Virus record (IMG/VR): IMGVR_UViG_3300002220_000047
Length of the DNA stretch: 20,000 nucleotides
Strand: one strand, 5' to 3'
From: an uncultured virus (IMG/VR IMGVR_UViG_3300002220_000047)
Lineage: Duplodnaviria > Heunggongvirae > Uroviricota > Caudoviricetes
The notes beneath the pieces are model-generated. The model was not told the DNA's origin. It saw only the letters and a program-made list of their open reading frames with translations, and did not search any database. Made by a program: the position numbers and the translations under genes. Position 1 is the stretch's first letter; each line of letters opens with the position of its first letter. Of the stretch, positions 923 through 18,023 are shown piece after piece.

Positions 923-3178
923 TTAATCATATCTTCTAGTTCTAATAACAGAATGAAATTGATTTATATCTACATCTGTAGGTAATTCAACATGTAACTT
1001 TTCTAATGTAAGTGTTGATAAAGAATCTGTATGAGATACTAAATCTTGCGCTAAAGTCAATACATCATCAAAAAGATCAATTGTTCCTAGAACATCTAGT
1101 GATAATTCACTTTCTCCAAATTTCAAAGAATGGTTAGTTAGATTCAGAGAAGTCTCACCGAATAAATTTACTGGTATCTTTAACGATGCGAAACCGAAAG
1201 AACGTGTAAATTCATCCATCCAGTGGGTATGATTAAAAACACTAGCAGCTAATAATACATGAATATTACCTTTATTATCTATAAGTGTAGAACCAACCGA
1301 AATATTAGATATTTCTATTTCAGAACGAGTGTTTATTAATTTATCTGATATTAAAAGATCACTAAAAGACATTACGTAATATTCATAATGATATCCAGAA
1401 AATTCTTCACCAGCTAATAGAGAAAATATTAATTTATTATTAATAGTATCAAAAAAGATATCACATCCGACTATAATGTAAAATCCATCAACAACTACTT
1501 CTTTAGATGATATGAGTGTTAGATCGGATGAAAATTTAAATAACTTAGTAGCTCTATATCCATAAGCTACATTTTCACTATATGTATATAAATTGTCATT
1601 ATTGTCTTTAGTTATTTTCTTGAAGTCAGTTACTTTATTAGGAGAAGATGAATTCAATATAGCTAAATTAGAATCTAATCTAACGATAAGCCCAGAACCA
1701 TTTGAGAATGATCCTTCTCCAACAGCTACAAAATTACCATTTGATAATTCTACAATATCTCTAAGAGAACATGTATAATTTTCTTCACCGATTATTTTTA
1801 AATTAGCTACTTTAGTACTAACGAAATTAAAAGCCATTTTAGCTACAAATGCTTTTTCAATCCCATTCAAATACATAGTGTGTCCAACAACAACAATATT
1901 CAATCCATCGTTAGTAATTATAACTTTATTTAAACTACCTCCGGTAATAAAATCTTTGATTATTACAGAAGAGATTATTTCTAGATTCTTGTTTAGTATA
2001 AGAATTACTGGAAAAGACATCTCTTGTGGTACTGAGATGTCTCCAACTACTATTATTTTCTCTCCATCAGAACTAATACACATACTTTTAAATTCTAATG
2101 ATTTGAGTAGAGTACCGTGTGCATTCAATATTCCATATTTAACTATTCTTTTTACTTTCTGATTTATATTAGAAATAATAATTACTGAATCGCGATTAAA
2201 TGGTTGTCCTGTTGATATTTGTTCAGCCACTTGATGACCGCAAGAATATATAGAATTATCTCTAATAAATGAATCAGTTATGATCGCATCATTAGAACCA
2301 AATTCACTCCAGATTCCGAAATCTTCGTTTACATAAAAATTAACAGAAGATTTAATAGCTTCTTCTACGCCATCATTTATTGTTATTGAAAATGAGATAT
2401 TTCTAATAGTAACATCATCTACAGATACTTTAAATATCGGACTACTTACTGACCCGACTTGGGTTATTACTACTCCGGGATCAATACATGTCATTTCGAA
2501 TACGAGATTCGTTTCATTTGAAGAATTTATATATTTTATTTTAGCGTAGTATTCAGTGAAACAAAATAATCCATTAGGATTCATTTTCTCACCAGGAAGA
2601 ACTCTCATATCTACAAGATCTGTACAATCTGGATCTGTAAAGAATTCTAACTTCTCAATATGAAGATTAGTGATCTCCATAGCTTCTACGTTAACTTCAA
2701 GAAATAGATTCGTTTTTGTTATTGAGTTAGTTATTTTTCCATCATTAACTACAGAGAGAGAATTATTAGGAGCTAGACGTATATCATAATCTACAACAGC
2801 TGCTTTATTTGTAAGTCCTAAAAGTGCAGTATCTTGATTTTCATTAACTATATCTAAGTCATCGAGATCTTCAAGAAAATCAACTAATTTTATTCCACTA
2901 TTAATCAACATTCCATCTTGAGCTATTACTATTTCACCTTCCATTTCTACTGTTGGTTCTATGAATATATTACTTCCAGCTGAAGTTGTATTTAATAATT
3001 CAGTAAGAGTAAAAAGAATGGGCAGATCCTTATATAAAGTCTGCCCATCCCCTAATTTAAATACCCCATTGTCTAAAGCGAAAACAAGTACACCATCTGT
3101 TATTGGTCTAACTGTATCGCTCCAGACATTGGAGGTTCCTTTCGAATATTCGACGATCGCCTTCAATCGTTTAAGCAT
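923..3178 (-). CDS. Putative tail fibre/receptor-binding protein (Mtd_N/hyaluronidase-N-like anchor plus probable beta-propeller)
   Basis: N-terminal W..xxxPITDGVLVFALDNGVFKLGDGQTLYKDLP resembles the KIGDG...WNDLPY tail-fibre anchor motif. C-terminal repeats (SSDGEKIIVVG, TNDGLNIVVVG, LSNGNFVAVG, DNNDNLYTYS) suggest propeller blades. Start overlaps the upstream stop by 8 nt. Confidence 0.7.
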   Translation of the reverse strand: MLKRLKAIVEYSKGTSNVWSDTVRPITDGVLVFALDNGVFKLGDGQTLYKDLPILFTLTELLNTTSAGSNIFIEPTVEMEGEIVIAQDGMLINSGIKLVDFLEDLDDLDIVNENQDTALLGLTNKAAVVDYDIRLAPNNSLSVVNDGKITNSITKTNLFLEVNVEAMEITNLHIEKLEFFTDPDCTDLVDMRVLPGEKMNPNGLFCFTEYYAKIKYINSSNETNLVFEMTCIDPGVVITQVGSVSSPIFKVSVDDVTIRNISFSITINDGVEEAIKSSVNFYVNEDFGIWSEFGSNDAIITDSFIRDNSIYSCGHQVAEQISTGQPFNRDSVIIISNINQKVKRIVKYGILNAHGTLLKSLEFKSMCISSDGEKIIVVGDISVPQEMSFPVILILNKNLEIISSVIIKDFITGGSLNKVIITNDGLNIVVVGHTMYLNGIEKAFVAKMAFNFVSTKVANLKIIGEENYTCSLRDIVELSNGNFVAVGEGSFSNGSGLIVRLDSNLAILNSSSPNKVTDFKKITKDNNDNLYTYSENVAYGYRATKLFKFSSDLTLISSKEVVVDGFYIIVGCDIFFDTINNKLIFSLLAGEEFSGYHYEYYVMSFSDLLISDKLINTRSEIEISNISVGSTLIDNKGNIHVLLAASVFNHTHWMDEFTRSFGFASLKIPVNLFGETSLNLTNHSLKFGESELSLDVLGTIDLFDDVLTLAQDLVSHTDSLSTLTLEKLHVELPTDVDINQFHSVIRTRRYD

Positions 3179-5249
3179 ATTTTACTATCATGTTTTTTAT
3201 TTTAAATGTACTCGTAGTTACATTATTTTCTTTAGGAATAATAACTACATCTATAGTTTCATCGATGTCTGAAATTATATATCTGAAAACAAAATTAACA
3301 TCACGATAGAAAAATTCTCCATAACCAGAAGATACTTCAGTATCAGAATTATAAGAGCTTAGAATAGTTGTAGCTCGTATCGCTGCATCATCAACTTCCT
3401 CGACGATATCATCTACTCCAAGAATAAAATTATTAATAGCCACAAACTCAGTTCCGACTTCATTATCAGCAGCGCCACACGTTGTGAAATCTAGAGTGGT
3501 TCTGGCAATGATTCTATATTTCGTATCAATGACTAATTGATATGCTTCTATCAATTCTACGCTAGGATTCGCTATTAGATCAACGATAATCTTATCAATC
3601 AAGAGTTTATCTACTGCAGAAAAGAACTGTGGATATGCATCAGTATTATCTAAGACAGTAGGAAAGTCAGGATCGCCAAAAGGAGTAACCCCAGCTTCTA
3701 TATCTTTATTAAGAACGATATACATACCTTCGATCATCGGAATGATTTGGGTTTTAGAGGAATAATCGACACCTACAGAAGACCAGGTTGTAACTCCATC
3801 AGGCATCAGAACATCATCGTCTTGAGGAGGAGTATTTGCAGGATCGAAAGGTACTAACAACCAACAAGATTCTTTACCACTAAGATCTTCAATAGAAAGA
3901 GTTTCCTGAAGAGCCACAGTAAGTTTCATTCCAATCTGAAGAATAACACCTTCATAAGATCCACCAGTATTAGCACGAAGAAGTCTTAATTTAGGAGTAG
4001 CTGCAGATAAAACATTATTAGGAACATTGCTATTTAAACAACGTACTGACATAACGCTATTATTAACATTAATAACATCTACAGCTACAGAACATTCAAA
4101 CATCATCTTTGAATATAAAGAAGCTATTCTAAATTTAAATACATCAGATTTAATATAATCAGTAGAACCTTCTACTTGATAAAGAGTAGCAATATTCCAG
4201 AAATGATCTGTACTATCGATTGCGGATACCTTCTTCAACAAAGAGGTACCGCTACTGATATCACCATAAGACGGTAAACCGTTTTGAAGAAGAAGTCGCA
4301 TTTTTCCCTCCAGACTTTGAAGTTGATCTTTCATTTTTGTAATAACAGGCGATGATCTTAAAGTAGGTGCGGTAATAAAAGGATTACCAGTAAGGAAATC
4401 TACTATAGAATTTATTTTTTCATTAGTAGTGACGATACTGGTGACATCAGTCTGACCACCATATGCCTGATAGTCTATTTTAACATCACCGACAAATTCA
4501 ATTAACATCTTTATTGTACTAAACAAACCAGAAGCATTAGCTGAAGTTGATGTTTTTGCAATATCTGCTTCGATTACTTTATAATCTATATCTTCGGTTA
4601 GAACATTTTGAGTAAGATTGTTTTTTACAACGAGAGAGTTTTTAAAGAATGCCCCGTATGTAGGTCTTATGAAAATAATATTATCTAGAGAGTTTACATT
4701 ATGAATTTCATTAGTAATCATATTAGCCGGATTTGTTCCATCTGGATCGATATCTAAAACTCTAATATCTCCAGTTGCGATCGAATAACCTTTTGATCTA
4801 TAAAGAAGAATTTCACTCAACAATTCTAATCTTCGAGACATATTCGATATTAAAGCTGGAGTAAGTTCAACATGCTGAAGAGGATCGATGATTGAATAAT
4901 CAAAAGAATTAGGATATATCTGATTGAATTTCAACTGAATGTGATATTCAGATACAAATGTTTTATTGATAGTAATACTCTTTAATAATGTTTTATTAAA
5001 GGACGCATCAATAGCTTTCATTTTAGACATAGCGTCGTAATTGATATCACTACTCAATATAATAAATTCTGTATTTCTAACAAGATTTACAGGAAGACCA
5101 TCTACCATGATTACTTCTAATTTTTCATTATCGAAAACTGGAATGTCAAACATGATTTTCTGGGTGTTCATGAATACCATGCGTTCAACGTCTGTCACAT
5201 AGAATTCAGGATCAATACCAGTTAAATCGTATGAATAATACATCGACAT
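3171..5249 (-). CDS. Virion structural (baseplate/tail-fibre-associated) protein of phiKZ-like phages
   Basis: Motifs DPDGTNPANMITNEIH, IRPTYGAFF and IDYQAYGG resemble conserved phiKZ-like tail/baseplate proteins; paralogous to 6574..7878; GGGAG SD upstream. Confidence 0.65.
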   Translation of the reverse strand: MSMYYSYDLTGIDPEFYVTDVERMVFMNTQKIMFDIPVFDNEKLEVIMVDGLPVNLVRNTEFIILSSDINYDAMSKMKAIDASFNKTLLKSITINKTFVSEYHIQLKFNQIYPNSFDYSIIDPLQHVELTPALISNMSRRLELLSEILLYRSKGYSIATGDIRVLDIDPDGTNPANMITNEIHNVNSLDNIIFIRPTYGAFFKNSLVVKNNLTQNVLTEDIDYKVIEADIAKTSTSANASGLFSTIKMLIEFVGDVKIDYQAYGGQTDVTSIVTTNEKINSIVDFLTGNPFITAPTLRSSPVITKMKDQLQSLEGKMRLLLQNGLPSYGDISSGTSLLKKVSAIDSTDHFWNIATLYQVEGSTDYIKSDVFKFRIASLYSKMMFECSVAVDVINVNNSVMSVRCLNSNVPNNVLSAATPKLRLLRANTGGSYEGVILQIGMKLTVALQETLSIEDLSGKESCWLLVPFDPANTPPQDDDVLMPDGVTTWSSVGVDYSSKTQIIPMIEGMYIVLNKDIEAGVTPFGDPDFPTVLDNTDAYPQFFSAVDKLLIDKIIVDLIANPSVELIEAYQLVIDTKYRIIARTTLDFTTCGAADNEVGTEFVAINNFILGVDDIVEEVDDAAIRATTILSSYNSDTEVSSGYGEFFYRDVNFVFRYIISDIDETIDVVIIPKENNVTTSTFKIKNMIVKYA

Positions 5250-5265
5250 GATTTATTATCTCCCG

Positions 5266-5874
5266 CTATGGTTGCTGAATTTGAATTATTGTATCTTCGT
5301 ATGACGCGAGAAGATTTTGTAAATCAGCGATGATTTGCTGTAAAGCTAATTTATCTACATAATGATTAGTTACTCTTGTCACTAAAGCTTCTCTAGCTTC
5401 TTTTATTACTAAGTATTCATCCTGAGACATCCATACTTCTTTAGTGGCATAAATGACAGAAGGATTTGATACACCTATCATGGATTCTACGATCTGGTCA
5501 ACTTCACCTTGAATTGTAGTGAGAGTATCAATTTCTTCGTGAATACCCAAACCAATAGAAATACCTAATTCTAAATATTTCTGAATACTCGCATTAGGAG
5601 TTTCTTTTAATATATGTTCTGGAACATAAATAATATTACTTTCATCAAGTACTGATCTTAGTTTATAGATATTTTCATTTCGTAAAATAGGAAGATCCGT
5701 ATCGAAAGTTTCTGTTGGAATTGCTAACTTATCATAAAGATCGGTTTTAATATCGATTCCTAAACCGACCAATTCGGAATAAGATAAAACCATTAGTGAT
5801 GTATATATGCCGTCCAATTCCTCAAACGCAGTTATGAATACGAATTTATATGTGAAGTCTGGTTGAATTCTCAA
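5266..5874 (-). CDS. Jumbo-phage protein, probably virion-associated, with C-terminal coiled coil
   Basis: Start corrected to TTG at 5874, preceded by strong SD AAGGAGGT; the longer ORF call runs through a terminator hairpin. IYVP and GISIGLG motifs plus a coiled-coil tail resemble a conserved phiKZ-like family (from memory). Confidence 0.6.
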   Translation of the reverse strand: MRIQPDFTYKFVFITAFEELDGIYTSLMVLSYSELVGLGIDIKTDLYDKLAIPTETFDTDLPILRNENIYKLRSVLDESNIIYVPEHILKETPNASIQKYLELGISIGLGIHEEIDTLTTIQGEVDQIVESMIGVSNPSVIYATKEVWMSQDEYLVIKEAREALVTRVTNHYVDKLALQQIIADLQNLLASYEDTIIQIQQP

Positions 5875-5940
5875 GGTGTTACCTCCTTTTAATCTGTTAG
5901 TAGACTCATTAGATGATAAATGAATAATACAAAATGTATC

Positions 5941-5971
5941 AGTGAGATGCCTCAATAAGAGGCATCTCACT
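5941..5971 (-). terminator. Intrinsic terminator
   Basis: Perfect 13-bp stem AGTGAGATGCCTC-aataa-GAGGCATCTCACT just after the stop of 5983..6552. Confidence 0.8.
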
Positions 5972-5982
5972 AATTGCACAAA

Positions 5983-6552
5983 TTAGATTGTTGTAGGATC
6001 AATTCCTTTTGATGTCAGAAATGCTATCAAATTCTGACGGATGATCTGAGAATTTTCATTCATAGTTAAAGGATCTTCAGAATTTATAATAGTGTCTAGT
6101 CTATCTTTAGTAATAGAAAATCTCCATTCGCAATATGCATTCACTAATGTCTGAGCTAAAGGTTTCAGTGTATCGACTACATATCCATCATCTCCAGTAT
6201 ATGATAATACAGCCATTACTTCAGAATGGCTCATGAAGATCTTTCTGCTGAATACTCCGAAGAACGTTGAGTCATAAATGTTTCTTGTTACTCTCATCAT
6301 TTCTTTCTTTTTCGATTCTACTGAAGCGCTTAACCGACTAGCTTTTTTAGCATCTAGAACTATTTTTTCTTCAGCAGTAATTTCTCTTACTTTAATTTTA
6401 TATTGATTAGTTAGGTCTTCTTCTATAATGTAGTGATCAGCATTTGTATAATCACTATGTATAACGAAAACTGGAAAATGATCTTTAGGGAGAAGTTCCG
6501 TACTCGAAATCGCATTGATTCTTCTGTTAATGGTATCGACTCTTACAAACAT
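5983..6552 (-). CDS. Hypothetical protein, possible tail-fibre assembly chaperone
   Basis: 189 aa, GAGGAG SD, directly downstream of a tail-fibre gene; beta-rich N-terminus followed by a helical region, as in Tfa-like chaperones. Function inferred from position. Confidence 0.5.
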   Translation of the reverse strand: MFVRVDTINRRINAISSTELLPKDHFPVFVIHSDYTNADHYIIEEDLTNQYKIKVREITAEEKIVLDAKKASRLSASVESKKKEMMRVTRNIYDSTFFGVFSRKIFMSHSEVMAVLSYTGDDGYVVDTLKPLAQTLVNAYCEWRFSITKDRLDTIINSEDPLTMNENSQIIRQNLIAFLTSKGIDPTTI

Positions 6553-6573
6553 TTTTCAACTCCTCGTGTTTAT

Positions 6574-7878
6574 TTAAGCGGGTAGTTTGATATCATTTTC
6601 AATGACAGCTATTGAGATATTACCAGCATTACCATTTCCAGATATTTTAATTTTATCAGTACCAGCTGCTGTAAATGCTATTACTCCAGAAGTCATCTTC
6701 CAAGGATGTGTAATGACGAAAGATCCCCAATTTGTTGCTTCTACGATGATTTCCCAATATCCAGTATCTGGTAAATTAGATACAGAAAGAGTACATGCTC
6801 CATCTGACGTATGTGTAAAATAGTTGGCTTGATCTAAGTTAAAATCGATGTTTCCATTATCGATTCCTAATACATTAGTTTTACCAATTCCCAAAGGAAT
6901 AGCATTTCTTAAAATACTAAACTGTCCGATTAAAGAATTAAGAACACTTGAAAGATTCTGAAAAGATGGAGAAGATTTCAGATTTCCGGAAGTTAACATA
7001 GAATTCGTATTCAAAAAAGTAGCCATAGATACTACAATATCTTTCATCGTATTCATCGTAGTTCTAGAAACCGTATCACCATATGCGTGGTAATCTATTT
7101 CAACTTCTCCAACAAATGCAGTTAGAAATCTTATCGATCTAAAGACTCCAGATGAATTTGCTGACATTGTGGTCAGAGGAATATCTGAGTCTATGATTTC
7201 ATAATCTGTATCTAATATAAATAATGTCTGAGCTAGCTTTCTACGGATAACTACTGAATCTTTAAAGAATGCTCCATACGAAGGACGAATATATGATATA
7301 CCTGCAATCGTGTTTATGTTGTGAGTTTCGTCAGTAATTTCATTTGTTTCATTAATCCCATCAATATCAGGTTCTAATATTTTTATCGTTTGAGATTCTA
7401 AAGAATAGTTTCCATTACTAGATGCCATAACTGATCTGAGCTGTTCTACCTGCAAGGCTAGATTACTTACAAATTCAGTAGTGGCATCCACTAGTTCTTC
7501 GGGATCTACAGAAGACAATGTTACATTATTCGGATATAACTGATTAAACGAAAGACTAACAGAGTAATCAGTCACGAATGTTTTTATAATAGTAATGTTT
7601 TTTAAAAGAGTAGTATTTCCAAAAGCATTATCTATTACAAGCATTTCGCTAATAGCTTCTTCATCGATATCATCAACACCGATTTCCCAATCAACGTCTT
7701 TAACCATAAGAACTGGAACATCGCCAGGTACTAATCTATATACTACTAATTCAGCATTATCAAAAACTGGAAATTTAAATACTAATTTCTGATTATCTCT
7801 AAAAATTCGTTTAATGAGTTCAGTGACATGATAATCCGGAAGTAGTCCGGTTAAATCTGGAGTTCCATAATTTGCCAT
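6574..7878 (-). CDS. Tail-fibre-like virion protein (phiKZ-like anchor domains plus C-terminal beta-sandwich tip)
   Basis: Start at MANYG (GGAG SD). N-terminal ~320 aa paralogous to 3171..5249. C-terminal IDFNLDQANYFTHT...TLSVSNLP...FTAAGTD resembles a widespread phage tail-fibre C-terminal domain. Confidence 0.68.
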   Translation of the reverse strand: MANYGTPDLTGLLPDYHVTELIKRIFRDNQKLVFKFPVFDNAELVVYRLVPGDVPVLMVKDVDWEIGVDDIDEEAISEMLVIDNAFGNTTLLKNITIIKTFVTDYSVSLSFNQLYPNNVTLSSVDPEELVDATTEFVSNLALQVEQLRSVMASSNGNYSLESQTIKILEPDIDGINETNEITDETHNINTIAGISYIRPSYGAFFKDSVVIRRKLAQTLFILDTDYEIIDSDIPLTTMSANSSGVFRSIRFLTAFVGEVEIDYHAYGDTVSRTTMNTMKDIVVSMATFLNTNSMLTSGNLKSSPSFQNLSSVLNSLIGQFSILRNAIPLGIGKTNVLGIDNGNIDFNLDQANYFTHTSDGACTLSVSNLPDTGYWEIIVEATNWGSFVITHPWKMTSGVIAFTAAGTDKIKISGNGNAGNISIAVIENDIKLPA

Positions 7879-7954
7879 ATCAATCTCCATGAGGATTGTT
7901 GTTATTTAAACCTATTCTTATTTCATTTAATGGTAGACCTAATATATTAAACAG

Positions 7955-7987
7955 AGTAATGAACGCCAGTTTGAGGCGTTCATTACT
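7955..7987 (-). terminator. Intrinsic terminator
   Basis: Perfect 13-bp stem AGTAATGAACGCC-agtttga-GGCGTTCATTACT downstream of the DarG-like gene. Confidence 0.8.
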
Positions 7988-8003
7988 TTTAAGAAGCATT
8001 TCA

Positions 8004-9035
8004 TTAAAATCCACTAAATGGATCATCGTTATTAGCTGGAGCTTTACTGTAATTATTAGAATTATTATTACCACTATTATTTTTAGCAGCCCAGTCTCTT
8101 TGACTCATTTTTTTAAGAGCTTCTTTCCAATCGTTTTTCAGAATCAAATACATACGATATCGATCTACACCAAGCTGATCAATTATATCTTTAGCCGCAG
8201 TTTCGAAATGACTAATGTTATTCCCTAACACTAAAGTCATTTTAGTAGGATCAACACCACGCATTGCATTAAATAAGATTCCGTGATTAACCATGAAACT
8301 CATTTTCATCATGAACTCTTTAAAGAATTCACCATGGTCGGTTTTATAAAATTCAACTTCTTTGAAATAACCATTATCTTTAAATACTTTATAAAATCTA
8401 ACTAGAGATGACTTAGACATTTTGTATCTCGATAGTCTAGTGAAAAGATCTTTGAGAACAATCATTACAAGTATATCATCTTTTGAAGACATTCGTGTTT
8501 CTTTAAGAGGATTAATTTTCCACGATACTATAGATTTACCTTGAAGTGTCATGATGTCAATAATAAAATATTTTAATTTATCTTCTTCATCCATGAGATG
8601 AACATCAATAGCTGAATATGATAAGTAATCGATGATAGGTTGAATTGCTAAAGAGTCGGCCAGCCTACTAGTTTTAAAATCAATTACCGGTATAACTATT
8701 TTCTTAATAAAGAATTTATTTTCTAGACTAATCAATTGATCGAGACAATCTAGAATATCCACTAAAGCTGCACCATATCGATCTACTGTTTTTATAACTA
8801 ATAAGATTACTCTGCATTCTTCATTCACTGGAATGATAAATACATTTCCAGGAATAAGAGTTTTCCCAGAATATAATTCATCGAATTTTTGATTAAGTTC
8901 TGGATATTCTTTACATATTGATAAGAAATAACTATTCTCTCTAATATTATCAACGGCTACTGGAATAACTATATCTTTTACATCTATTTCTTTTTTAAGA
9001 TCTGTGATTGATTTACTCGTATGAACTGTAAGCAT
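8004..9035 (-). CDS. Divergent DarG-like protein (degenerate macrodomain plus DarG C-terminal-like domain)
   Basis: Start at MLTVH (GAGG SD). Pattern IVIPV...L...KEYPE...PGNVFII...VILLVIK...L.DI...L..LI...IKKIVIP aligns nearly without gaps to DarG macrodomains as recalled. EFYKTDHGEF matches the DarG C-terminal F.(K)GxYGPY segment. Confidence 0.65.
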   Translation of the reverse strand: MLTVHTSKSITDLKKEIDVKDIVIPVAVDNIRENSYFLSICKEYPELNQKFDELYSGKTLIPGNVFIIPVNEECRVILLVIKTVDRYGAALVDILDCLDQLISLENKFFIKKIVIPVIDFKTSRLADSLAIQPIIDYLSYSAIDVHLMDEEDKLKYFIIDIMTLQGKSIVSWKINPLKETRMSSKDDILVMIVLKDLFTRLSRYKMSKSSLVRFYKVFKDNGYFKEVEFYKTDHGEFFKEFMMKMSFMVNHGILFNAMRGVDPTKMTLVLGNNISHFETAAKDIIDQLGVDRYRMYLILKNDWKEALKKMSQRDWAAKNNSGNNNSNNYSKAPANNDDPFSGF

Positions 9036-9119
9036 TGCGTATTCCTCATGATGGTTATTTTTAAAAGAAGTCATTGAATTGTATTTAACAATAATTTTAA
9101 ACCCGGAGAACGTATAAGA

Positions 9120-10130
9120 ATGAAATCATTCGAAGAAAAGATTGTTGAGTTAATGAACCTTTCTGATGATATAAAAGATTACATCATAAATCAGAAATTC
9201 GTAGATGGAGAAACTCCAGTAGATGCATTAACAGAAACTTCTATTCTAAATAAGTGTTATGAAATATTGATGGATAGTTTAAATGAACAAGGCATTATCT
9301 TTCATGTAGATAAAGAAAGTATTCTGGAAGATGGGCATAATACCAGAACTTTAATTACATTGTTTAATGTATGTACATTCGCTGGTCTTTATAATCAGCT
9401 CGTTGTAAATAAAGATTTGATTTCGGATATATCGAGTATATATGAGAATTTCTCTAATAACGAATATATCACTGAAGTTATGAGATTGTTGAAAGATAAT
9501 ACTGACAATCAAGATTATACCGATATGTACGTTTTCCTATTTGATAAGATTTCATCTGATGATAATTATAGTTTAATATTAGAGTCTTTGTTAGATACAT
9601 TTAAAGATAAAGAAAATCGTATTGATTCTATCGATGGTGAAGATATTGGTGGATATCTATCAGTCCTAAAAGAAGAGAGATTGAATTTAGATAGAAAGAT
9701 CTCAGATCTTTTACATTCCACTATGTTCAGCATTCCTGTTCTTGATGATGTAGTAAAAAGAAAAGATAAACTTTTAACTGAATTATTATTTCCTTGTTAT
9801 TATGCTTCATTTATTGCCAAGCATCTTCTAGCGATAGGTAATAATGAATCTATCCATAATGAAGAAATTGATAATGAATTCAAAACTAGTTTAGATGCTG
9901 TAAGTAAACAAAGTAAACGATATATTAAATATTTTACTATAAGAGAAAGTACTGGAAGTAATTATGAAATACCAACTACAGCTGACTATATATTAATGAT
10001 TCTTACCGCTATTGGGGTGAATAATATATTTGGTGGTATGATCGTTAATGTTGAAAATATCTTGGATTCTATCCACGATGAGAAAGAAAAAGAAATCATC
10101 AGCAATGTTTATCAGACAATAAAAGACTGA
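9120..10130 (+). CDS. Hypothetical acidic helical protein co-transcribed with the virion RNAP subunit
   Basis: 336-aa ORF, GGAG SD, 12 nt upstream of the beta' middle gene; no recognisable motif. Confidence 0.6.
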   Translation: MKSFEEKIVELMNLSDDIKDYIINQKFVDGETPVDALTETSILNKCYEILMDSLNEQGIIFHVDKESILEDGHNTRTLITLFNVCTFAGLYNQLVVNKDLISDISSIYENFSNNEYITEVMRLLKDNTDNQDYTDMYVFLFDKISSDDNYSLILESLLDTFKDKENRIDSIDGEDIGGYLSVLKEERLNLDRKISDLLHSTMFSIPVLDDVVKRKDKLLTELLFPCYYASFIAKHLLAIGNNESIHNEEIDNEFKTSLDAVSKQSKRYIKYFTIRESTGSNYEIPTTADYILMILTAIGVNNIFGGMIVNVENILDSIHDEKEKEIISNVYQTIKD

Positions 10131-10142
10131 GGTAATATATAA

Positions 10143-11477
10143 ATGAACAAAACAATTCTTAATCTTTTATTATCTTATCCAGATAACCTATTAAATAAAG
10201 ATTGTATTATTGACTATTTTACAAAATGTAAACTAAATACTAAAGACGAATTACAGGCTGAAGATAATAGACTGAATACTAATGTTTATGTAGGAAAGAT
10301 TTTTAAACTAGATGAAGATATCTGTACAATAACCACAATGACTTCTAATTCTCTATTCGAATTCGCTAAGATATCAGGCGTCTCTGAAGAAGAAATGCCT
10401 TTCTTGGATTTTCATGAAGATGTTTCTATCGATAGTAAATTTATTAAGAATCTAAAAGATGAAGAAAAGATAACTACGACTCTCGGTAGATTTTTATTAA
10501 ATCATACATTATTAGTAATGACTGTTGGTGATAAAATACCATATATAAATGATAATTGGGATATTAATTCTGTCGGTAAAAAGCTTATTCAATTAGTTAT
10601 GGATAAAGAGATAGGTATTGAACCTGCTAAACTATTTATCAATACTGTTTATTTTCTTAGTAGCTATAGTGAATTCGTAGCTCCTTCTTTAAGCGAAGCT
10701 GCAATTACAGTCGATCCTAGAGTAATAGAACTCAGAAATAAATTATTTGAACAGTATAAAGATCAACTTAATGATCCTGAAATAATGATCAAAATTGAGA
10801 AAGAAGTAATTGCTCTAGATAAAGAAATATTAAGTCATGATCCTGAAGCTGGATTCTTATCATCGGCTAAGAATTTTAATGTTCATCGTAAACGTATGTT
10901 CCTTATGATGGGATTGTTATCAGCATTTGGTGATGAACATAAGCAATTTAATTTCAGTACTACTAATTTAGACGATGGTTGGAAAATAGAAGATCTAGAT
11001 ACCCTCTTCAATGAAGTAAGAAGTGGCTCTTATGGTCGAGCAAAAGAAACAGCCAAGGGTGGAGCTGAATCTAAATATCTCGGTAGAACATTCCAGGAAG
11101 CCAAAATAGTTGAAGATGATTGTGGTACTAAGAAAGGAATTCACGTAAGTCTAAATAATAATAATATCGAAAACTTCTTATATAGAACTTTGATTACCGG
11201 AAGTAAAAATCCAGTTGTTATTACTAAAGCTAATAATTCTCAGTTCATTGGAAAAGATGTTATTGTTAGAAGCCCAATGTTCTGTATTGCTAAAAATGGT
11301 TATTGTTATTCTTGTATGGATGAAAGACATAAAACATTAGGTACTAGAAGATTAAATATTCAACCTCTATCTATTGGAAGTACTTTCCTTACTAATAGTA
11401 TGAAGAAGATGCATGGATCCGCTGTAGACACGTTTGAGATTACTGCTGATGTTTTAGCTCAAGCGTCAGTTGATTAA
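10143..11477 (+). CDS. Virion RNA polymerase beta' middle subunit (phiKZ gp80-like)
   Basis: Bridge helix GSYGRAKETAKGG, Zn site DDCGT...RSPMFC...CYSC, trigger loop SMKKMHG; 444 aa ending shortly after the trigger loop. Confidence 0.9.
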   Translation: MNKTILNLLLSYPDNLLNKDCIIDYFTKCKLNTKDELQAEDNRLNTNVYVGKIFKLDEDICTITTMTSNSLFEFAKISGVSEEEMPFLDFHEDVSIDSKFIKNLKDEEKITTTLGRFLLNHTLLVMTVGDKIPYINDNWDINSVGKKLIQLVMDKEIGIEPAKLFINTVYFLSSYSEFVAPSLSEAAITVDPRVIELRNKLFEQYKDQLNDPEIMIKIEKEVIALDKEILSHDPEAGFLSSAKNFNVHRKRMFLMMGLLSAFGDEHKQFNFSTTNLDDGWKIEDLDTLFNEVRSGSYGRAKETAKGGAESKYLGRTFQEAKIVEDDCGTKKGIHVSLNNNNIENFLYRTLITGSKNPVVITKANNSQFIGKDVIVRSPMFCIAKNGYCYSCMDERHKTLGTRRLNIQPLSIGSTFLTNSMKKMHGSAVDTFEITADVLAQASVD

Positions 11478-11499
11478 AACAAACTTTTGAGGAAAGAAT

Positions 11500-12272
11500 A
11501 TGGCTACCAAAAACAAAAAGAAAAATGTTGTAGAAGCTGATAAGGCTGTTTCGGTATCTCCTGGTGATCAGGCTGCCGCTGCCGCAGTAGCTTCAACTGA
11601 TAACACCACTGTTGGTGATGGTGTAGATACGACCATTACTGATGGTACTCCAGGTGATGTTACTACAATCGTCGATGGTGATACTCTCGACACTACCACC
11701 ACAACTCTGGTCGATGGTGATACATCCGATCTTACGACTGGAGAATCTACTGATGAGGGTGAAACTGAACTAGTAACTGACGATACTTCTTCCAAAGAAA
11801 AATCAGAGAAAGAAGAAATCGATACTAAAAAAGATAAGACTGAACTGAAGGAAGAGAAAGAAGAAACGAAAAAGAAAGAAGNNAAGAGAAACCTCAGAAG
11901 GTCAAACATCTTTCTGTTCAGTTCATGGATCAGTTCATTGACAACATGAAAAGTGGTCGTCGTTCAACCGCCATCCTTTCGATTAATAATATGTGCAAGC
12001 ATATCATTAAGGATGCTGATGATGATTCGATGAATGAGATCGTTAGTAGGTTCAAGGAAGATCCGACTTGCGGCCCGAGATTCATTATGCAGAATATCGC
12101 TACTCTTCAGGTTCGTGATCGTCAGAAGGTGGAAATAATTACTACAGCTATCGCCATCGTTGCAGCTGGTGGTAATATGAAAAATCTTAACATCGATAAG
12201 GTTTCTCAGATGACCGGAAGTAAGCATTTTGTATCTTGGCTTGCTAAGAAGGCTGCAATGGTAAAGAAGTAG
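11500..12272 (+). CDS. Hypothetical protein with disordered acidic/Thr-rich N-terminus and helical C-terminal domain (single gene interrupted by an NN gap)
   Basis: ORFs 11500..11949 and 11925..12272 join across NN at 11882-11883; the downstream frame reads EKPQKVKHLSVQFMDQF without a stop back to the gap. Confidence 0.7.
11605..11735 (+). repeat. Imperfect coding tandem repeats (TT.vDGd)
   Basis: TTVGDGVD / TTITDGTP / TTIVDGDT / TTLVDGDT; the DNA string GTCGATGGTGATAC occurs twice. Confidence 0.7.
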
Positions 12273-13210: not shown

Positions 13211-13978
13211 ATGTCTGAAGATTTGATAATGCGTGCTTATGATTACGATAATCAAGATGTAACTGATTGGTGGCTTAGTGAAAAGTTTGATGGAGTCATG
13301 GCGATTTGGGATGGTAATCATCTTATTAGTCGATGTGGTAATAAGTTCTTTGCACCGGACTGGTTTACCGAGAAATTTCCAAAGGATTTTCCTTTAAATG
13401 GAGAACTCTGGATAGGTCGTGGACAGTTCCAAAAAGTAGTTTCTGTAGTGAAAAAGAAGTTTCCTATTGATTCAGAATGGGAACAAGTTAAATTTATTAT
13501 TTTCGATACACCGGATGTAATTTCCCCTTTTGAACATCGATTACTATTATGCGGTTCTGTTTCTAAGCAATCTAAATATTTAGGATTCGCAAGACAAATT
13601 CAATGTTCCGATATCTGTCTATTTGAACATGAATATCAATCCATACTAGCTAAAGGTGGAGAAGGAGTAATGCTTCATAGACCTGGTTCTTTATATACAT
13701 ATGGAAAATCAAAAGATGTTATTAAAAGAAAACCTAAAGCTTATGATGAAGCTGATGTTATTGGTTATATTCCAGGTAAAGGTAAAAATACAGGAAAAAC
13801 TGGAGCTCTTATCTGTACTTGGAATAATAAAACTTTTAGATTAGGTTCTGGTCTTACTGACGAACAAAGAAATAATCCGCCAGCTATAGGAGCCAAAGTA
13901 ACCTTCAAACGAAATGGGTTAACCGCCGGCGGGTTCCCTAGACATCCAGTATTTATTGAGGTAAGAGATTATGAGTAA
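13211..13978 (+). CDS. lig: Minimal ATP-dependent DNA ligase (adenylation plus OB domains)
   Basis: Motif I SEKFDG, III LNGELW, IIIa FIIFD, IV EGVML, V IKRKP, OB-domain GSGLTDEQR and motif VI PRHPVF..VRD. Confidence 0.95.
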   Translation: MSEDLIMRAYDYDNQDVTDWWLSEKFDGVMAIWDGNHLISRCGNKFFAPDWFTEKFPKDFPLNGELWIGRGQFQKVVSVVKKKFPIDSEWEQVKFIIFDTPDVISPFEHRLLLCGSVSKQSKYLGFARQIQCSDICLFEHEYQSILAKGGEGVMLHRPGSLYTYGKSKDVIKRKPKAYDEADVIGYIPGKGKNTGKTGALICTWNNKTFRLGSGLTDEQRNNPPAIGAKVTFKRNGLTAGGFPRHPVFIEVRDYE

Positions 13979-15302: not shown

Positions 15303-15818
15303 TTACTTTTCAGAATTTCCAGCAGAAATATCTACTGCAGGAGCTCCTATTTCTAGTTCTCCATCAGTAGCAACAATATTTCTTTTTCCAACTTCGGCAT
15401 CGAGTACTTCGTCTATAGATGCACAGAGTTTAGATCCATCATCTAAAGTTCTACAAGTAGTATTCTTTATAGAAGAAAGAAGTGCAGTTACAGTCTTATT
15501 CACAATAGCCTCAGTATTCGCATCATCTTCCTTAGACTTCATTTTCTGTTTTAGTTTAATTATTTCTCGTTGAGAAGATTCGATAGTATCAAGAGACTTC
15601 GTAAGAGAATCTATTAACATAGCTTTAGCAGCTAATACTTTAGCATTATCATTCTCACCTATTGTAATTCCCATTACTATTTTTTCTAACTTATCAGATA
15701 GATCTACTCGTATTTTTTCTGATTTTCTAGATCTATCTTGTAGTCTTTGAATATCTTTAGATATCTGAATATCGATATCTGCCGTATTTTCGTAATCATA
15801 TTCTTCATTCGGTTCCAT
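15303..15818 (-). CDS. Hypothetical helical/coiled-coil protein
   Basis: Likely start MEPNEE at 15818 (AGGTG SD); lone minus-strand gene within the early region. Confidence 0.65.
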   Translation of the reverse strand: MEPNEEYDYENTADIDIQISKDIQRLQDRSRKSEKIRVDLSDKLEKIVMGITIGENDNAKVLAAKAMLIDSLTKSLDTIESSQREIIKLKQKMKSKEDDANTEAIVNKTVTALLSSIKNTTCRTLDDGSKLCASIDEVLDAEVGKRNIVATDGELEIGAPAVDISAGNSEK

Positions 15819-15872
15819 TGATATCACCTATGGAAAATGGTTGATTAATAGGTATTCATAGAATATACATAA

Positions 15873-16833: not shown

Positions 16834-17349
16834 ATGTCAGCTGAAAAAGTAGAGAAACCAAGAGGTATTTATCAGCATTCTAAAACTGGTAGATTATACA
16901 CCTATCTAAATTTATGTGAAAATAGAACAAATGATGTTTGTGAAGATAAACCAAATAGTCGAATGGTTTGTTATTTAGATAGGGATCAATCATGGTTTGT
17001 TCGTGATTCTAAAGAATTCCACGGATATGTAGATCTAGATAACGTTAGAGATATTTTTGGCGTTAATAAAAATGGAACATTTAAAAGATTCCGTGAAGTT
17101 ATATTTAGAGAGATTGGTTGTTTTTGTAAAGAAATACAAAATAACGAAATGGCTATAATTCCTATTGATATTTTTCAGAGAATGTTAAAAGTTTTTGATG
17201 TTATTAATCATGAAAAAGCATATTACTATCTAGCTAATGAAAGATATGTTTCTGATGTACGAGTTTTCGATTTCGGACTCTTACATGTTTTGAGAAACAC
17301 ATGGGCCACGCATATCGTGGTCTGCACTAAACCGGGGATTCATCCGTGA
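16834..17349 (+). CDS. DUF1653-like domain protein
   Basis: GIYQHSKTGRLY...MVCY...WFVR..EF matches the G.YRHYKG..Y...VVY...WVRP..F pattern; extra C-terminal region. Confidence 0.7.
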   Translation: MSAEKVEKPRGIYQHSKTGRLYTYLNLCENRTNDVCEDKPNSRMVCYLDRDQSWFVRDSKEFHGYVDLDNVRDIFGVNKNGTFKRFREVIFREIGCFCKEIQNNEMAIIPIDIFQRMLKVFDVINHEKAYYYLANERYVSDVRVFDFGLLHVLRNTWATHIVVCTKPGIHP

Positions 17350-18023
17350 AAACAGACATTCGAGTATTGTGTACGTTTGTAGTTACAATCATAGCACTAG
17401 TTATTTGTTATATTAAACATTTCTATGAATTTGCACATACTCTATATGGTCCGTTGATAGTCATCGTCGGTATTGCGATTGTGGTTGTTAATTCATTAGC
17501 CATGTTCTTCGTCTCTGAATTCGGTGGTAGACATTTTGCTTATTTTAAATATATAATTAAACATAAATGGTTTGTGTTGCTAGCTAGTAGACAACTTAAG
17601 GTTTCTCTATGGAGAGCTTTTATACACGATATTAGTAAGTTCAGACCTTCAGAATGGATACCTTATGCTAATACGTTTTATAACAAAGATGGATCTTCTA
17701 GATATCAAGAAACCAAAGAATTTAATTTAGCTTGGAATCATCATCAGAAACGTAATAAACATCATTGGCAATATTGGACTCTTGTAAAAGATGATGGTAA
17801 ATTAATATGTCTGGAGATACCGGAGAAATATGTCCGCGAAATGATAGCTGACTGGATAGGTGCTGGTAAATCTATCACTGGAAGTTGGAGAGATGTCTTT
17901 AACTGGTATCAGAATAATCAGAATTCTATTAAAATTAATCCTAAAACTAAACGACTAACTGATGATATCTTAAAAGAATTAGAAGATAGAACTTTTGTTA
18001 CGAAGTTTATGCAACGTTTTTAA
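17346..18023 (+). CDS. HD-like (DUF5662-type) putative phosphohydrolase with two N-terminal TM helices
   Basis: HKWFV...HDISKF...AWNHHQKRNKHHWQYW...EMIADW; hydrophobic stretches at ~7-23 and ~33-56; GTGA overlap with the upstream gene. Confidence 0.7.
   Translation: MKTDIRVLCTFVVTIIALVICYIKHFYEFAHTLYGPLIVIVGIAIVVVNSLAMFFVSEFGGRHFAYFKYIIKHKWFVLLASRQLKVSLWRAFIHDISKFRPSEWIPYANTFYNKDGSSRYQETKEFNLAWNHHQKRNKHHWQYWTLVKDDGKLICLEIPEKYVREMIADWIGAGKSITGSWRDVFNWYQNNQNSIKINPKTKRLTDDILKELEDRTFVTKFMQRF

What the first reader, a model, noticed from the sequence alone, without database searches (positions are those of the whole stretch)
8004..9035. Phage-encoded full-length DarG-like protein with degenerate ADP-ribose loops: candidate anti-DarTG decoy antitoxin
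Seen: DVKDIVIPVAVDNIRENSYFLSICKEYPE...PGNVFII, VILLVIKTVDR, IKKIVIPVIDFKTSRL, then RMSSKDD...MSKSSLVRFY...EFYKTDHGEF. Established: DarG (macrodomain plus C-terminal DarT-binding domain) reverses thymidine ADP-ribosylation by the antiphage toxin DarT; its motifs are NxVNCVGVMGKG, NFPTK (catalytic Lys), PPLGxGxGGL and a C-terminal YGPY. Inference from my recalled alignment: both domains are colinear and the Lys is retained, but both Gly-rich diphosphate-binding loops are replaced (VDNIRENS; IDFKTSR). No darT is adjacent, and the gene has its own terminator. This fits an orphan pseudo-macrodomain that sequesters DarT or has been repurposed.
Basis: partly seen in the sequence, partly recalled or inferred. 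Interest (0 to 1): 0.8.

Follow-up and report, generated by a model that had tools for sequence, protein, structure and literature searches.

The report
Dead DarG antitoxin domesticated by phages
A group of uncultured giant bacteriophages carries a whole copy of a bacterial anti-phage antitoxin (DarG) whose enzyme pocket has been rebuilt, always at the same spot beside an RNA polymerase gene; it is either a decoy against the host toxin or, somewhat more likely, an antitoxin turned to a new DNA-binding job.

Summary
Gene 8004-9035 (-) of a phiKZ-like jumbo phage encodes a two-domain protein. Both domains best match DarG2 among 48,161 solved chains: macrodomain Z 16.6; C-domain Z 9.1 to DarG-C, tied with generic winged helices. 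The domains are colinear with DarG2 by profile alignment. In 25 of 25 family macrodomains both glycine-rich loops and the N22-equivalent Asn are gone; the K80 position is Lys in 15 and Arg in 10. It is therefore not an AdfM-type hydrolase. No darT lies near any copy. New here: all 7 distinct loci place it head-to-head with the same gene pair ending in an RNA polymerase subunit, in one clade, with a matching tree. The winged helix is the best-conserved part and is basic (24 of 26), whereas DarG-C is acidic (9 of 10). The terminator is real but not conserved. Best reading: a DarG2-derived pseudoenzyme fixed in this lineage (about 0.8) and reused as a nucleic-acid-binding protein (0.45).

The parts
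8004..9035 (-). CDS of the DarG2-like pseudoenzyme (343 aa from the likely start; the ORF extends to an upstream ATG at 9074, 356 aa)
   Evidence: Met at this position in 16 of 17 aligned N-termini
9043..9047 (-). Shine-Dalgarno-like GAGGA, 7 nt before ATG 9035
   Evidence: GGAG/GGAGG at the same place in the 6 related loci
8580..9035 (-). Pseudo-macrodomain of the DarG/TARG1 class (residues 14-165), net acidic
   Evidence: Foldseek; VIA Z 16.6; profile score 34.1 vs best shuffle 15.8
8925..8957 (-). Loop 1 (residues 40-50): DarG N-C-V-G-V-M-G-K-G replaced; Asn-equivalent absent in 25 of 25, new invariant Asp42, Phe/Tyr50 in 23 of 25
8790..8792 (-). Lys95, equivalent to DarG K80 / TARG1 K84; Lys in 15 and Arg in 10 of 25
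8661..8690 (-). Loop 2 (residues 129-138): DarG P-P-L-G-x-G-x-G-G-L replaced; Asp/Glu at the G119 position in 15 of 25, Lys/Arg137 in 25 of 25
8514..8579 (-). Beta-hairpin linker (residues 166-187) between the two domains
   Evidence: DSSP of the model
8076..8495 (-). DarG-C/Panacea-like winged-helix domain (residues 194-290) with a long terminal helix (to 333); best-conserved part, net basic
   Evidence: VIA; Atlas TM 0.60 to the C-part of a 372-aa Macro protein and 0.54 to a Panacea cluster
8325..8336 (-). HGEF, the remnant of DarG YGPY (Gly248 in 26 of 26, Pro in 6 of 26), within an acidic-aromatic hairpin
8007..8069 (-). Low-confidence Asn/Ser-rich tail; most relatives end in a Phe-containing tip
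   Evidence: pLDDT under 50; alignment
7955..7987 (-). 13-bp hairpin, probable intrinsic terminator; not conserved in relatives
9120..10130 (+). Divergent 336-aa gene of unknown function, the head-to-head neighbour in 7 of 7 loci
10143..11477 (+). phiKZ-type multisubunit RNA polymerase subunit (phrog_2962), second gene of the divergent unit in 7 of 7 loci
   Evidence: E 2.6e-97

Best explanation
A DarG2 antitoxin was captured whole by the ancestor of one clade of uncultured phiKZ-like jumbo phages, lost its ADP-ribosyl hydrolase pocket, and was kept as a lineage-fixed gene with a new job. SHOWN computationally: DarG2-type two-domain fold; loss of both glycine loops and the N22-equivalent; orphan status; one fixed genomic slot; a gene tree that follows the RNA polymerase tree. 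INFERRED: the macrodomain no longer removes ADP-ribose from thymidine, and its rebuilt pocket (Asp42, Phe/Tyr50, Lys/Arg95, Lys99, Tyr/Phe100, Lys/Arg137) is a closed scaffold or protein-binding surface. INFERRED, weaker: the basic winged helix binds phage DNA or RNA, acting as a regulator or genome-associated protein of the divergent RNA polymerase / tail-lysis units it sits between. Descent plus loss of catalysis is about 0.8; the nucleic-acid-binding role is about 0.45.
For: Both domains rank DarG first among 48,161 chains and align colinearly. PADLOC DarG is the only hit, E 0.0022 over residues 55-282. The family profile picks up the canonical AdfM-type macrodomain of phage Centimanus (E 8.8e-4). 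No GxxGxG or GxGxG in 25 of 25 macrodomains, against all motifs intact in 10 of 10 DarG2. N22A, G119E and K80A each impair T. aquaticus DarG (PMC5179494, passages), and the family carries Ala/Ser/Gly/Cys, mostly Asp/Glu, and often Arg at those positions. Winged-helix core mean identity 38% vs 26% for the macrodomain (18 rows), with Lys221 25 of 26, Lys/Arg252 26 of 26, Lys257 25 of 26, and net positive in 24 of 26 vs net negative in 9 of 10 DarG-C; RNA polymerase subunits of the same genomes are near neutral (-2.3 to +0.9 per 100 aa). Its other structural neighbours are DNA-binding winged helices (Cdc6/ORC, MarR, PadR, RTP). Same slot in 7 of 7 loci of one clade (100/98 support), across about 41-57% RNA polymerase identity.
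Against: No nucleic-acid binding was measured; net charge is a crude proxy, the slices were chosen by hand and the sequences are related. The C-domain match to DarG-C is tied with generic winged helices (Z 9.1 vs 8.7, rmsd 5.4), and by sequence profile alone the C-domains score no better than shuffles (20.0 vs best shuffle 20.7). Six of the 7 loci were found with the gene as query, so 'always present' is not shown; the reverse search with the clade's polymerase returned only one in-clade contig, already known. The gene is absent from a complete sister-lineage genome (G002), so it is not needed by all relatives. Only 7 of 26 family sequences have genomic context. The 'acidic' hairpin around Gly248 is compatible with toxin binding.
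Confidence: 0.45

Rival explanations
1. Decoy antitoxin. The protein is a non-catalytic anti-DarTG2 factor: its DarG-C-like domain binds and blocks host DarT2, and the dead macrodomain is only a scaffold.
For: The C-domain's best solved match is the DarG-C chain of a DarT complex and it is the best-conserved part of the family. In EPEC, the DarG C-domain alone and a catalytically dead full-length DarG both neutralise DarT (PMC7003065, passages). Chimalliviruses are restricted by DarTG2 and carry orphan AdfM (PMC13309987); ICP1 carries the direct binder AdfB (PMC11481870). A conserved acidic-aromatic hairpin (Glu241 25 of 26, Tyr/Phe247 23 of 26, Gly248 26 of 26, Phe251 25 of 26) could mimic ssDNA locally. 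No darT is nearby.
Against: Charge is reversed relative to DarG-C, which is described as mimicking negatively charged ssDNA (second-hand, PMC11481870 citing Deep 2023): 24 of 26 basic vs 9 of 10 acidic. The distal DarG-C motif E-x-L-x-[ST] (10 of 10 DarG2) lies beyond the aligned region, and the matching part of the family is its least conserved (19.5%). Pro of GPY is kept in 6 of 26. T. aquaticus DarG K80A did not rescue DarT toxicity except for minor growth (PMC5179494). Known phage macrodomain counter-defence keeps the enzyme and drops the C-domain, the reverse of this. Fixed position and vertical descent are unlike most counter-defence genes (inference).
Confidence: 0.3
2. Altered enzyme or reader. 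The rebuilt pocket still binds ADP-ribose, ADP-ribosylated DNA or another nucleotide, or slowly hydrolyses it, with the winged helix delivering it to DNA.
For: Residues around the old pocket are strongly conserved as a new set: Asp42 25 of 25, Lys/Arg95 25 of 25, Lys99 22 of 25, Tyr/Phe100 25 of 25, Lys/Arg137 25 of 25. The profile's only solved-structure sequence hits are TARG1 entries (E 0.14-0.18), with K95 on TARG1's catalytic Lys.
Against: All loop glycines that contact ADP-ribose in DarG (G117, G119, G121; PMC5179494) are replaced, Arg replaces the proposed nucleophile in 10 of 25, and the domain is acidic (23 of 25) where DarG's is described as mostly positive around the site.
Confidence: 0.13
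3. Not descended from DarG2: an independent fusion of a TARG1-like macrodomain with a generic winged helix, the DarG resemblance being convergent.
For: TARG1 ranks level with DarG for the N-domain. C-domain identity to DarG-C is 5-7% and tied with Cdc6. The C-versus-C profile score is at shuffle level.
Against: Same domain order, spacing and length as DarG2; one continuous profile alignment that places K-x-x-Y and the F-x4-YG hairpin in register; the Atlas ranks a DarG cluster first for the whole protein and a 372-aa Macro protein's C-part at TM 0.60; PADLOC DarG hit spans both domains.
Confidence: 0.12

Closest known systems
DarG2 antitoxin of DarTG2 (T. aquaticus, EPEC, plasmid copies L012-L023; structures 5M3E, 5M3I, 7OMU, 7YK3)
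   Same: Macrodomain plus winged-helix C-domain in the same order and at similar length (343 vs 344-362 aa); basic residue at the K80 position; Gly of the YGPY hairpin.
   Different: No darT partner; both glycine loops and the N22-equivalent lost; charges of both domains reversed; distal C-domain motif not matched; phage-borne at a fixed slot.
AdfM (phiKZ gp104, T4 Tk.4; PMC13309987, PMC13716836)
   Same: Orphan DarG2-type macrodomain in a phiKZ-like phage; the family profile weakly matches the Centimanus copy.
   Different: AdfM is an active hydrolase with intact motifs; the Centimanus copy is 148 aa with no C-domain. This protein has the C-domain and lacks the motifs.
AdfB (ICP1 Gp145) and AdfA
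   Same: Phage-encoded, non-catalytic, proposed or shown to inhibit DarT directly: the mechanism the decoy reading would share.
   Different: AdfB is 77 aa with under 15% similarity to DarG (PMC11481870); this protein is a full-length structural homologue of DarG2.
Panacea/SocA (PF13274, formerly DUF4065) antitoxin domain
   Same: Related fold (Atlas TM 0.54); DarG-C itself matches it weakly (PMC13621843); the GPV-type hairpin Gly is kept.
   Different: No Pfam match for any family member tested; no adjacent toxin; fused to a pseudo-macrodomain.
TARG1/OARD1 macrodomain
   Same: Top Foldseek and profile hits for the N-domain; Lys in register.
   Different: TARG1 is a single active domain with glycine loops.

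Membership tests
DarG2 antitoxin | N-terminal DarG/TARG1-class macrodomain fold | tested here: met
   Foldseek; VIA Z 16.6, rmsd 2.8, 162 aligned
DarG2 antitoxin | C-terminal DarG-C winged-helix domain, colinear | tested here: met
   Top VIA hit 7yk3_D Z 9.1, rmsd 5.4, 131 aligned, tied with Cdc6 Z 8.7; continuous profile alignment. Met at fold level; specificity moderate.
DarG2 antitoxin | Loop 1 motif N-x-V-N-x-V-G-V-M-G-K-G with the N22 Asn | tested here: not met
   10 of 10 DarG2 vs 0 of 25 family members
DarG2 antitoxin | Loop 2 motif L-G-x-G-x-G-G | tested here: not met
   10 of 10 DarG2 vs 0 of 25
DarG2 antitoxin | Catalytic Lys (K80) | tested here: inconclusive
   Lys95 in this protein; Lys 15, Arg 10 of 25; NFPTK context lost
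DarG2 antitoxin | darT gene directly upstream | tested here: not met
   No DarT-like ORF among 1118 translations, best E 0.37; upstream gene is divergent in 7 of 7 loci
DarG2 antitoxin | Binds and neutralises DarT2 | not testable with these tools
   Needs co-expression and pull-down assays
AdfM anti-DarTG2 hydrolase | Orphan gene in a phiKZ-like phage | tested here: met
AdfM anti-DarTG2 hydrolase | Intact macrodomain catalytic motifs | tested here: not met
   Centimanus AdfM-type protein keeps them; family 0 of 25
AdfM anti-DarTG2 hydrolase | Removes ADP-ribose from thymidine; localises to the phage nucleus | not testable with these tools
   Bench work; the phage is uncultured
Chimalliviridae (host phage) | phiKZ-type multisubunit RNA polymerase genes | tested here: met
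   phrog_2986 E 1.4e-51 and phrog_2962 E 2.6e-97; about 27-34% identity to cultured phages
Chimalliviridae (host phage) | Chimallin gene | tested here: inconclusive
   Own genome not held; single-sequence search of 5 related records, without a positive control
Panacea/SocA (PF13274) | Profile match over the curated cut-off | tested here: not met
   0 of 15 and 0 of 3 members; fold resemblance only

The most novel reading that the evidence does not exclude
A whole toxin-antitoxin antitoxin was domesticated by a jumbo-phage lineage: DarG2 lost its chemistry, flipped its surface charge from DNA mimic to DNA binder, and became a fixed regulator or genome-associated protein at the bidirectional promoter between the RNA polymerase and tail/lysis units, possibly recognising the palindromic ATTCTATAGAAT-type element there. 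The alternative, equally new, is the first anti-DarTG2 factor built on DarG-C rather than on the enzyme.
Probability: 0.4. Interest if true: 0.75.

Novelty: new variant of a known kind. Interest (0 to 1): 0.58.

Why it matters
Described phage answers to DarTG are an orphan enzyme (AdfN, AdfM) or a small unrelated binder (AdfA, AdfB). A structural survey of viral proteins found DarG hits only through the macrodomain (bioRxiv 10.1101/2025.05.14.653371, passage). This family is the mirror image: whole DarG2, enzyme lost, C-domain best conserved. If it is a decoy, it adds a new anti-DarTG2 mechanism that a simple co-expression test can show. If it is repurposed, it is a clean case of a defence antitoxin becoming a fixed phage gene, with 26 natural sequences to trace how. 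It is invisible to Pfam, PHROGs and NCBIfam, so current annotation misses it.

Tried and rejected
Complex prediction of residues 14-335 (alignment A2) with T. aquaticus DarT, a stand-in from another host folded without alignment: 'no answer', score 0.00 in two runs, controls not folded; not used as evidence either way. RNA runs for window 7000-11500: none was listed. Foldseek of the C-domain model gave no match at E 0.001 or better; the rows shown were MarR, ORC/Cdc6, RTP and PadR winged helices, and DarG-C was not among them. Pfam, PHROGs and NCBIfam gave no credible family. phmmer against PDB sequences gave only chance hits. Word-index protein search found no relative with the single query and one with alignment A1. 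tblastn of cultured phages: no match for this protein; one E 5 hit for the L003 copy, not followed. Viral-contig scans with P0001, A4 and A5 and both GTDB scans found no relative. The idea that the 142-aa gene in the same slot of cultured chimalliviruses is a remote homologue was rejected (scores below 0 bits). Chimallin search of 5 related records: nothing, no positive control. PF01661 search of 5 related records: 0 of 5, four of them fragments. The upstream TATAnnAT motif could not be assigned to early or late expression. Deep et al. 2023 (DarT-DarG-C structure paper) is not held, so interface residues were not checked. Earlier scan notes: nothing relevant.

Full report
Numbering follows the 356-aa ORF (P0001); the likely start is Met14 at 9035.

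1. Observation. The quoted peptides lie in one minus-strand ORF, 8004-9074. GAGGA sits 7 nt before ATG 9035, and 16 of 17 aligned N-termini begin there. The window is a phiKZ-like jumbo phage: two multisubunit RNA polymerase subunits (phrog_2986 at 3-872, phrog_2962 at 10143-11477), tail and virion genes and a DNA ligase. The second subunit is only about 27-34% identical to cultured phages. That it is the virion polymerase beta-prime C-part (phiKZ gp80-like) is my recall, not a tool result. The hairpin at 7955-7987 is real (13 bp; -21.6 kcal/mol; z -6.75; 0 of 200 shuffles).

2. Family. An unindexed search of 1.84 billion representatives gave 15 hits including the query, 22-37% identical. A later profile search added more. 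After dropping one duplicate (P0029 = L005), one 111-aa fragment (P0015) and near-identical cluster mates, and replacing P0003 by its longer mate P0017, 26 sequences remained; 25 cover the macrodomain. None has a Pfam, PHROGs or NCBIfam family where tested. PADLOC gives one hit, DarG, E 0.0022 over residues 55-282; 2 of 15 members match it at E 1 or better.

3. Fold. AlphaFold2 on 14 sequences gave pLDDT 87.1, pTM 0.84. Foldseek ranks TARG1 and DarG macrodomains first. VIA-align against 48,161 chains ranks DarG macrodomains first (Z 16.6, rmsd 2.8, 162 aligned; Z 16.3) and places DarG-C (7yk3_D) on residues 196-331 at Z 8.5. The C-domain folded alone (pLDDT 81.7) ranks 7yk3_D first, Z 9.1, rmsd 5.4, 131 aligned, tied with the Cdc6 winged helix at Z 8.7. 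The ESM Atlas ranks a DarG cluster first by structure for the whole protein (TM 0.43, under its bar) and gives TM 0.60 to the C-part of a 372-aa Macro protein. Against 10 plasmid DarG2 proteins (L016 and L022 left out as split or macro-only), one profile alignment runs through both domains, residues 50-264, score 43.6, against a best shuffle of 22.75 and 14.2 reversed. The N-domain carries most of that signal (34.1 vs 15.8); the C-domain alone is at shuffle level (20.0 vs 20.7). Descent from DarG2 is therefore likely, not proven.

4. Pocket. All four motifs are intact in 10 of 10 DarG2. In the family no macrodomain has GxxGxG or GxGxG (0 of 25). The N22-equivalent is Ser/Ala/Gly/Cys, the G119-equivalent is Asp/Glu in 15 of 25, and the K80-equivalent (K95) is Lys in 15 and Arg in 10. 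In T. aquaticus DarG, K80A abolishes activity and N22A and G119E impair it (PMC5179494, passages). Canonical hydrolysis is thus very unlikely (inference). The region is not decaying at random: Asp42, Lys/Arg95, Tyr/Phe100 and Lys/Arg137 are each 25 of 25, Phe/Tyr50 23 of 25.

5. C-domain. Mean pairwise identity is 38% for residues 194-290, 26% for the macrodomain and 19.5% for the terminal helix (18 rows). The winged-helix core is net positive in 24 of 26 and negative in none; the matching DarG-C slice is negative in 9 of 10. The macrodomain is negative in 23 of 25, against 1 of 10 DarG2. Slices were hand-chosen and the rows are related, so this is a trend, not a statistic. [quoted passage not shown] The DarG-C motif E-x-L-x-[ST], present in 10 of 10, lies beyond the aligned region. 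In favour of a decoy, the hairpin around Gly248 is acidic and aromatic, and EPEC DarG-C alone neutralises DarT (PMC7003065, passages).

6. Context. Seven loci were fetched; L001 and L006 are the same sequence, leaving 6 plus the window. In 7 of 7 the gene is head-to-head with the same 315-340-aa gene followed by the polymerase subunit. These 7 form one clade in the polymerase tree (100/98), and the gene's own tree repeats the one well-supported split, window and L002 against the rest (98/97). The reverse search with the clade's polymerase gave 15 loci, one in-clade and already known; none of the other 14 has the gene in its flanks. Whole-record profile searches of 10 outside records found only the Centimanus AdfM-type macrodomain (positive control); one of them is a complete sister-lineage genome. 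Downstream neighbours vary: tail-type genes here and in L003, L004, L007, an endolysin 13 nt after the stop in L001 (phrog_7), so the terminator is local. TATAnnAT lies 23-41 nt upstream in 6 of 7 loci, against 1-4% of random windows and 13 of 93 gene starts; in L004 and L007 it is a 12-bp palindrome shared with the divergent gene. No DarT-like ORF was found in 1118 translations. The host is unknown and a phage nucleus is not established.

7. Mechanism. Best reading: a captured DarG2 that lost catalysis and was fixed in the lineage, with the basic winged helix binding phage nucleic acid (0.45). Rivals: DarT2 decoy (0.3), altered enzyme or reader (0.13), independent fusion (0.12). Fold, motif loss, orphan status and synteny are shown computationally; every functional step is inferred.

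8. Comparison and novelty. It works like neither DarG2 nor AdfM at the pocket and fails membership of both. AdfM (PMC13309987; I read parts 1-3 of 9, introduction to discussion, plus passages, not the supplements, whose homologue lists in Figures S1-S2 could bear on novelty) and T4 Tk.4 (PMC13716836, passages) are macrodomain anti-DarTG2 factors. AdfB is a 77-aa binder (PMC11481870, passages). AdfN was seen only in a listing (PMC11825919). A viral structure survey found DarG hits only via the macrodomain (10.1101/2025.05.14.653371, passage; bioRxiv supplements closed). Passages of PMC13621843, PMC8832971, PMC8120803 and PMC10299810 were read for the Panacea link and phage background. Six literature searches showed no phage-encoded full-length or catalytically dead DarG; subscription papers are not covered. 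Verdict: new variant of a known kind, interest 0.58.

Noticed in passing
window 11500-12272 (+): Two ORFs separated by an NN gap at 11882-11883 are probably one gene; relatives have a single 186-578-aa gene with an acidic repeat-rich N-part and a conserved C-part.
   Followed up: partly
L004 7905-8003 and L007 7912-8003: A perfect 12-bp palindrome, ATTCTATAGAAT, between the divergent genes gives both a TATAGAAT element; the same element precedes other conserved genes of the clade, including a phrog_2943 polymerase gene. Possibly this clade's own promoter motif.
   Followed up: partly
L029 7181-7690 (+): A canonical DarG-type macrodomain gene (E 7e-30 to the DarG profile) lies about 1 kb after the same polymerase subunit in an out-of-clade phage; likely AdfM.
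   Followed up: no
L010 1555-2001 and L011 1495-1968 (Klebsiella phage Centimanus): This phage carries two macrodomain genes: one AdfM-like with intact motifs and a second, more divergent one.
   Followed up: no
window 923-7890 (-): Tail/virion-type block with two paralogues (3171-5249 and 6574-7890) sharing an N-terminal region; L004 has a tandem pair related to 923-3178.
   Followed up: no
window 15303-15827 (-): 174-aa gene conserved downstream of the polymerase unit, on the opposite strand, in L001, L005 and L007; function unknown.
   Followed up: no
window 13211-13978 (+) and 17346-18023 (+): Minimal ATP-dependent DNA ligase, and a DUF5662 protein with a hydrophobic N-terminus.
   Followed up: no
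L026 4143-4966 (+): In a sister lineage two small related-looking genes are inserted between the 335-aa gene and the polymerase subunit.
   Followed up: no
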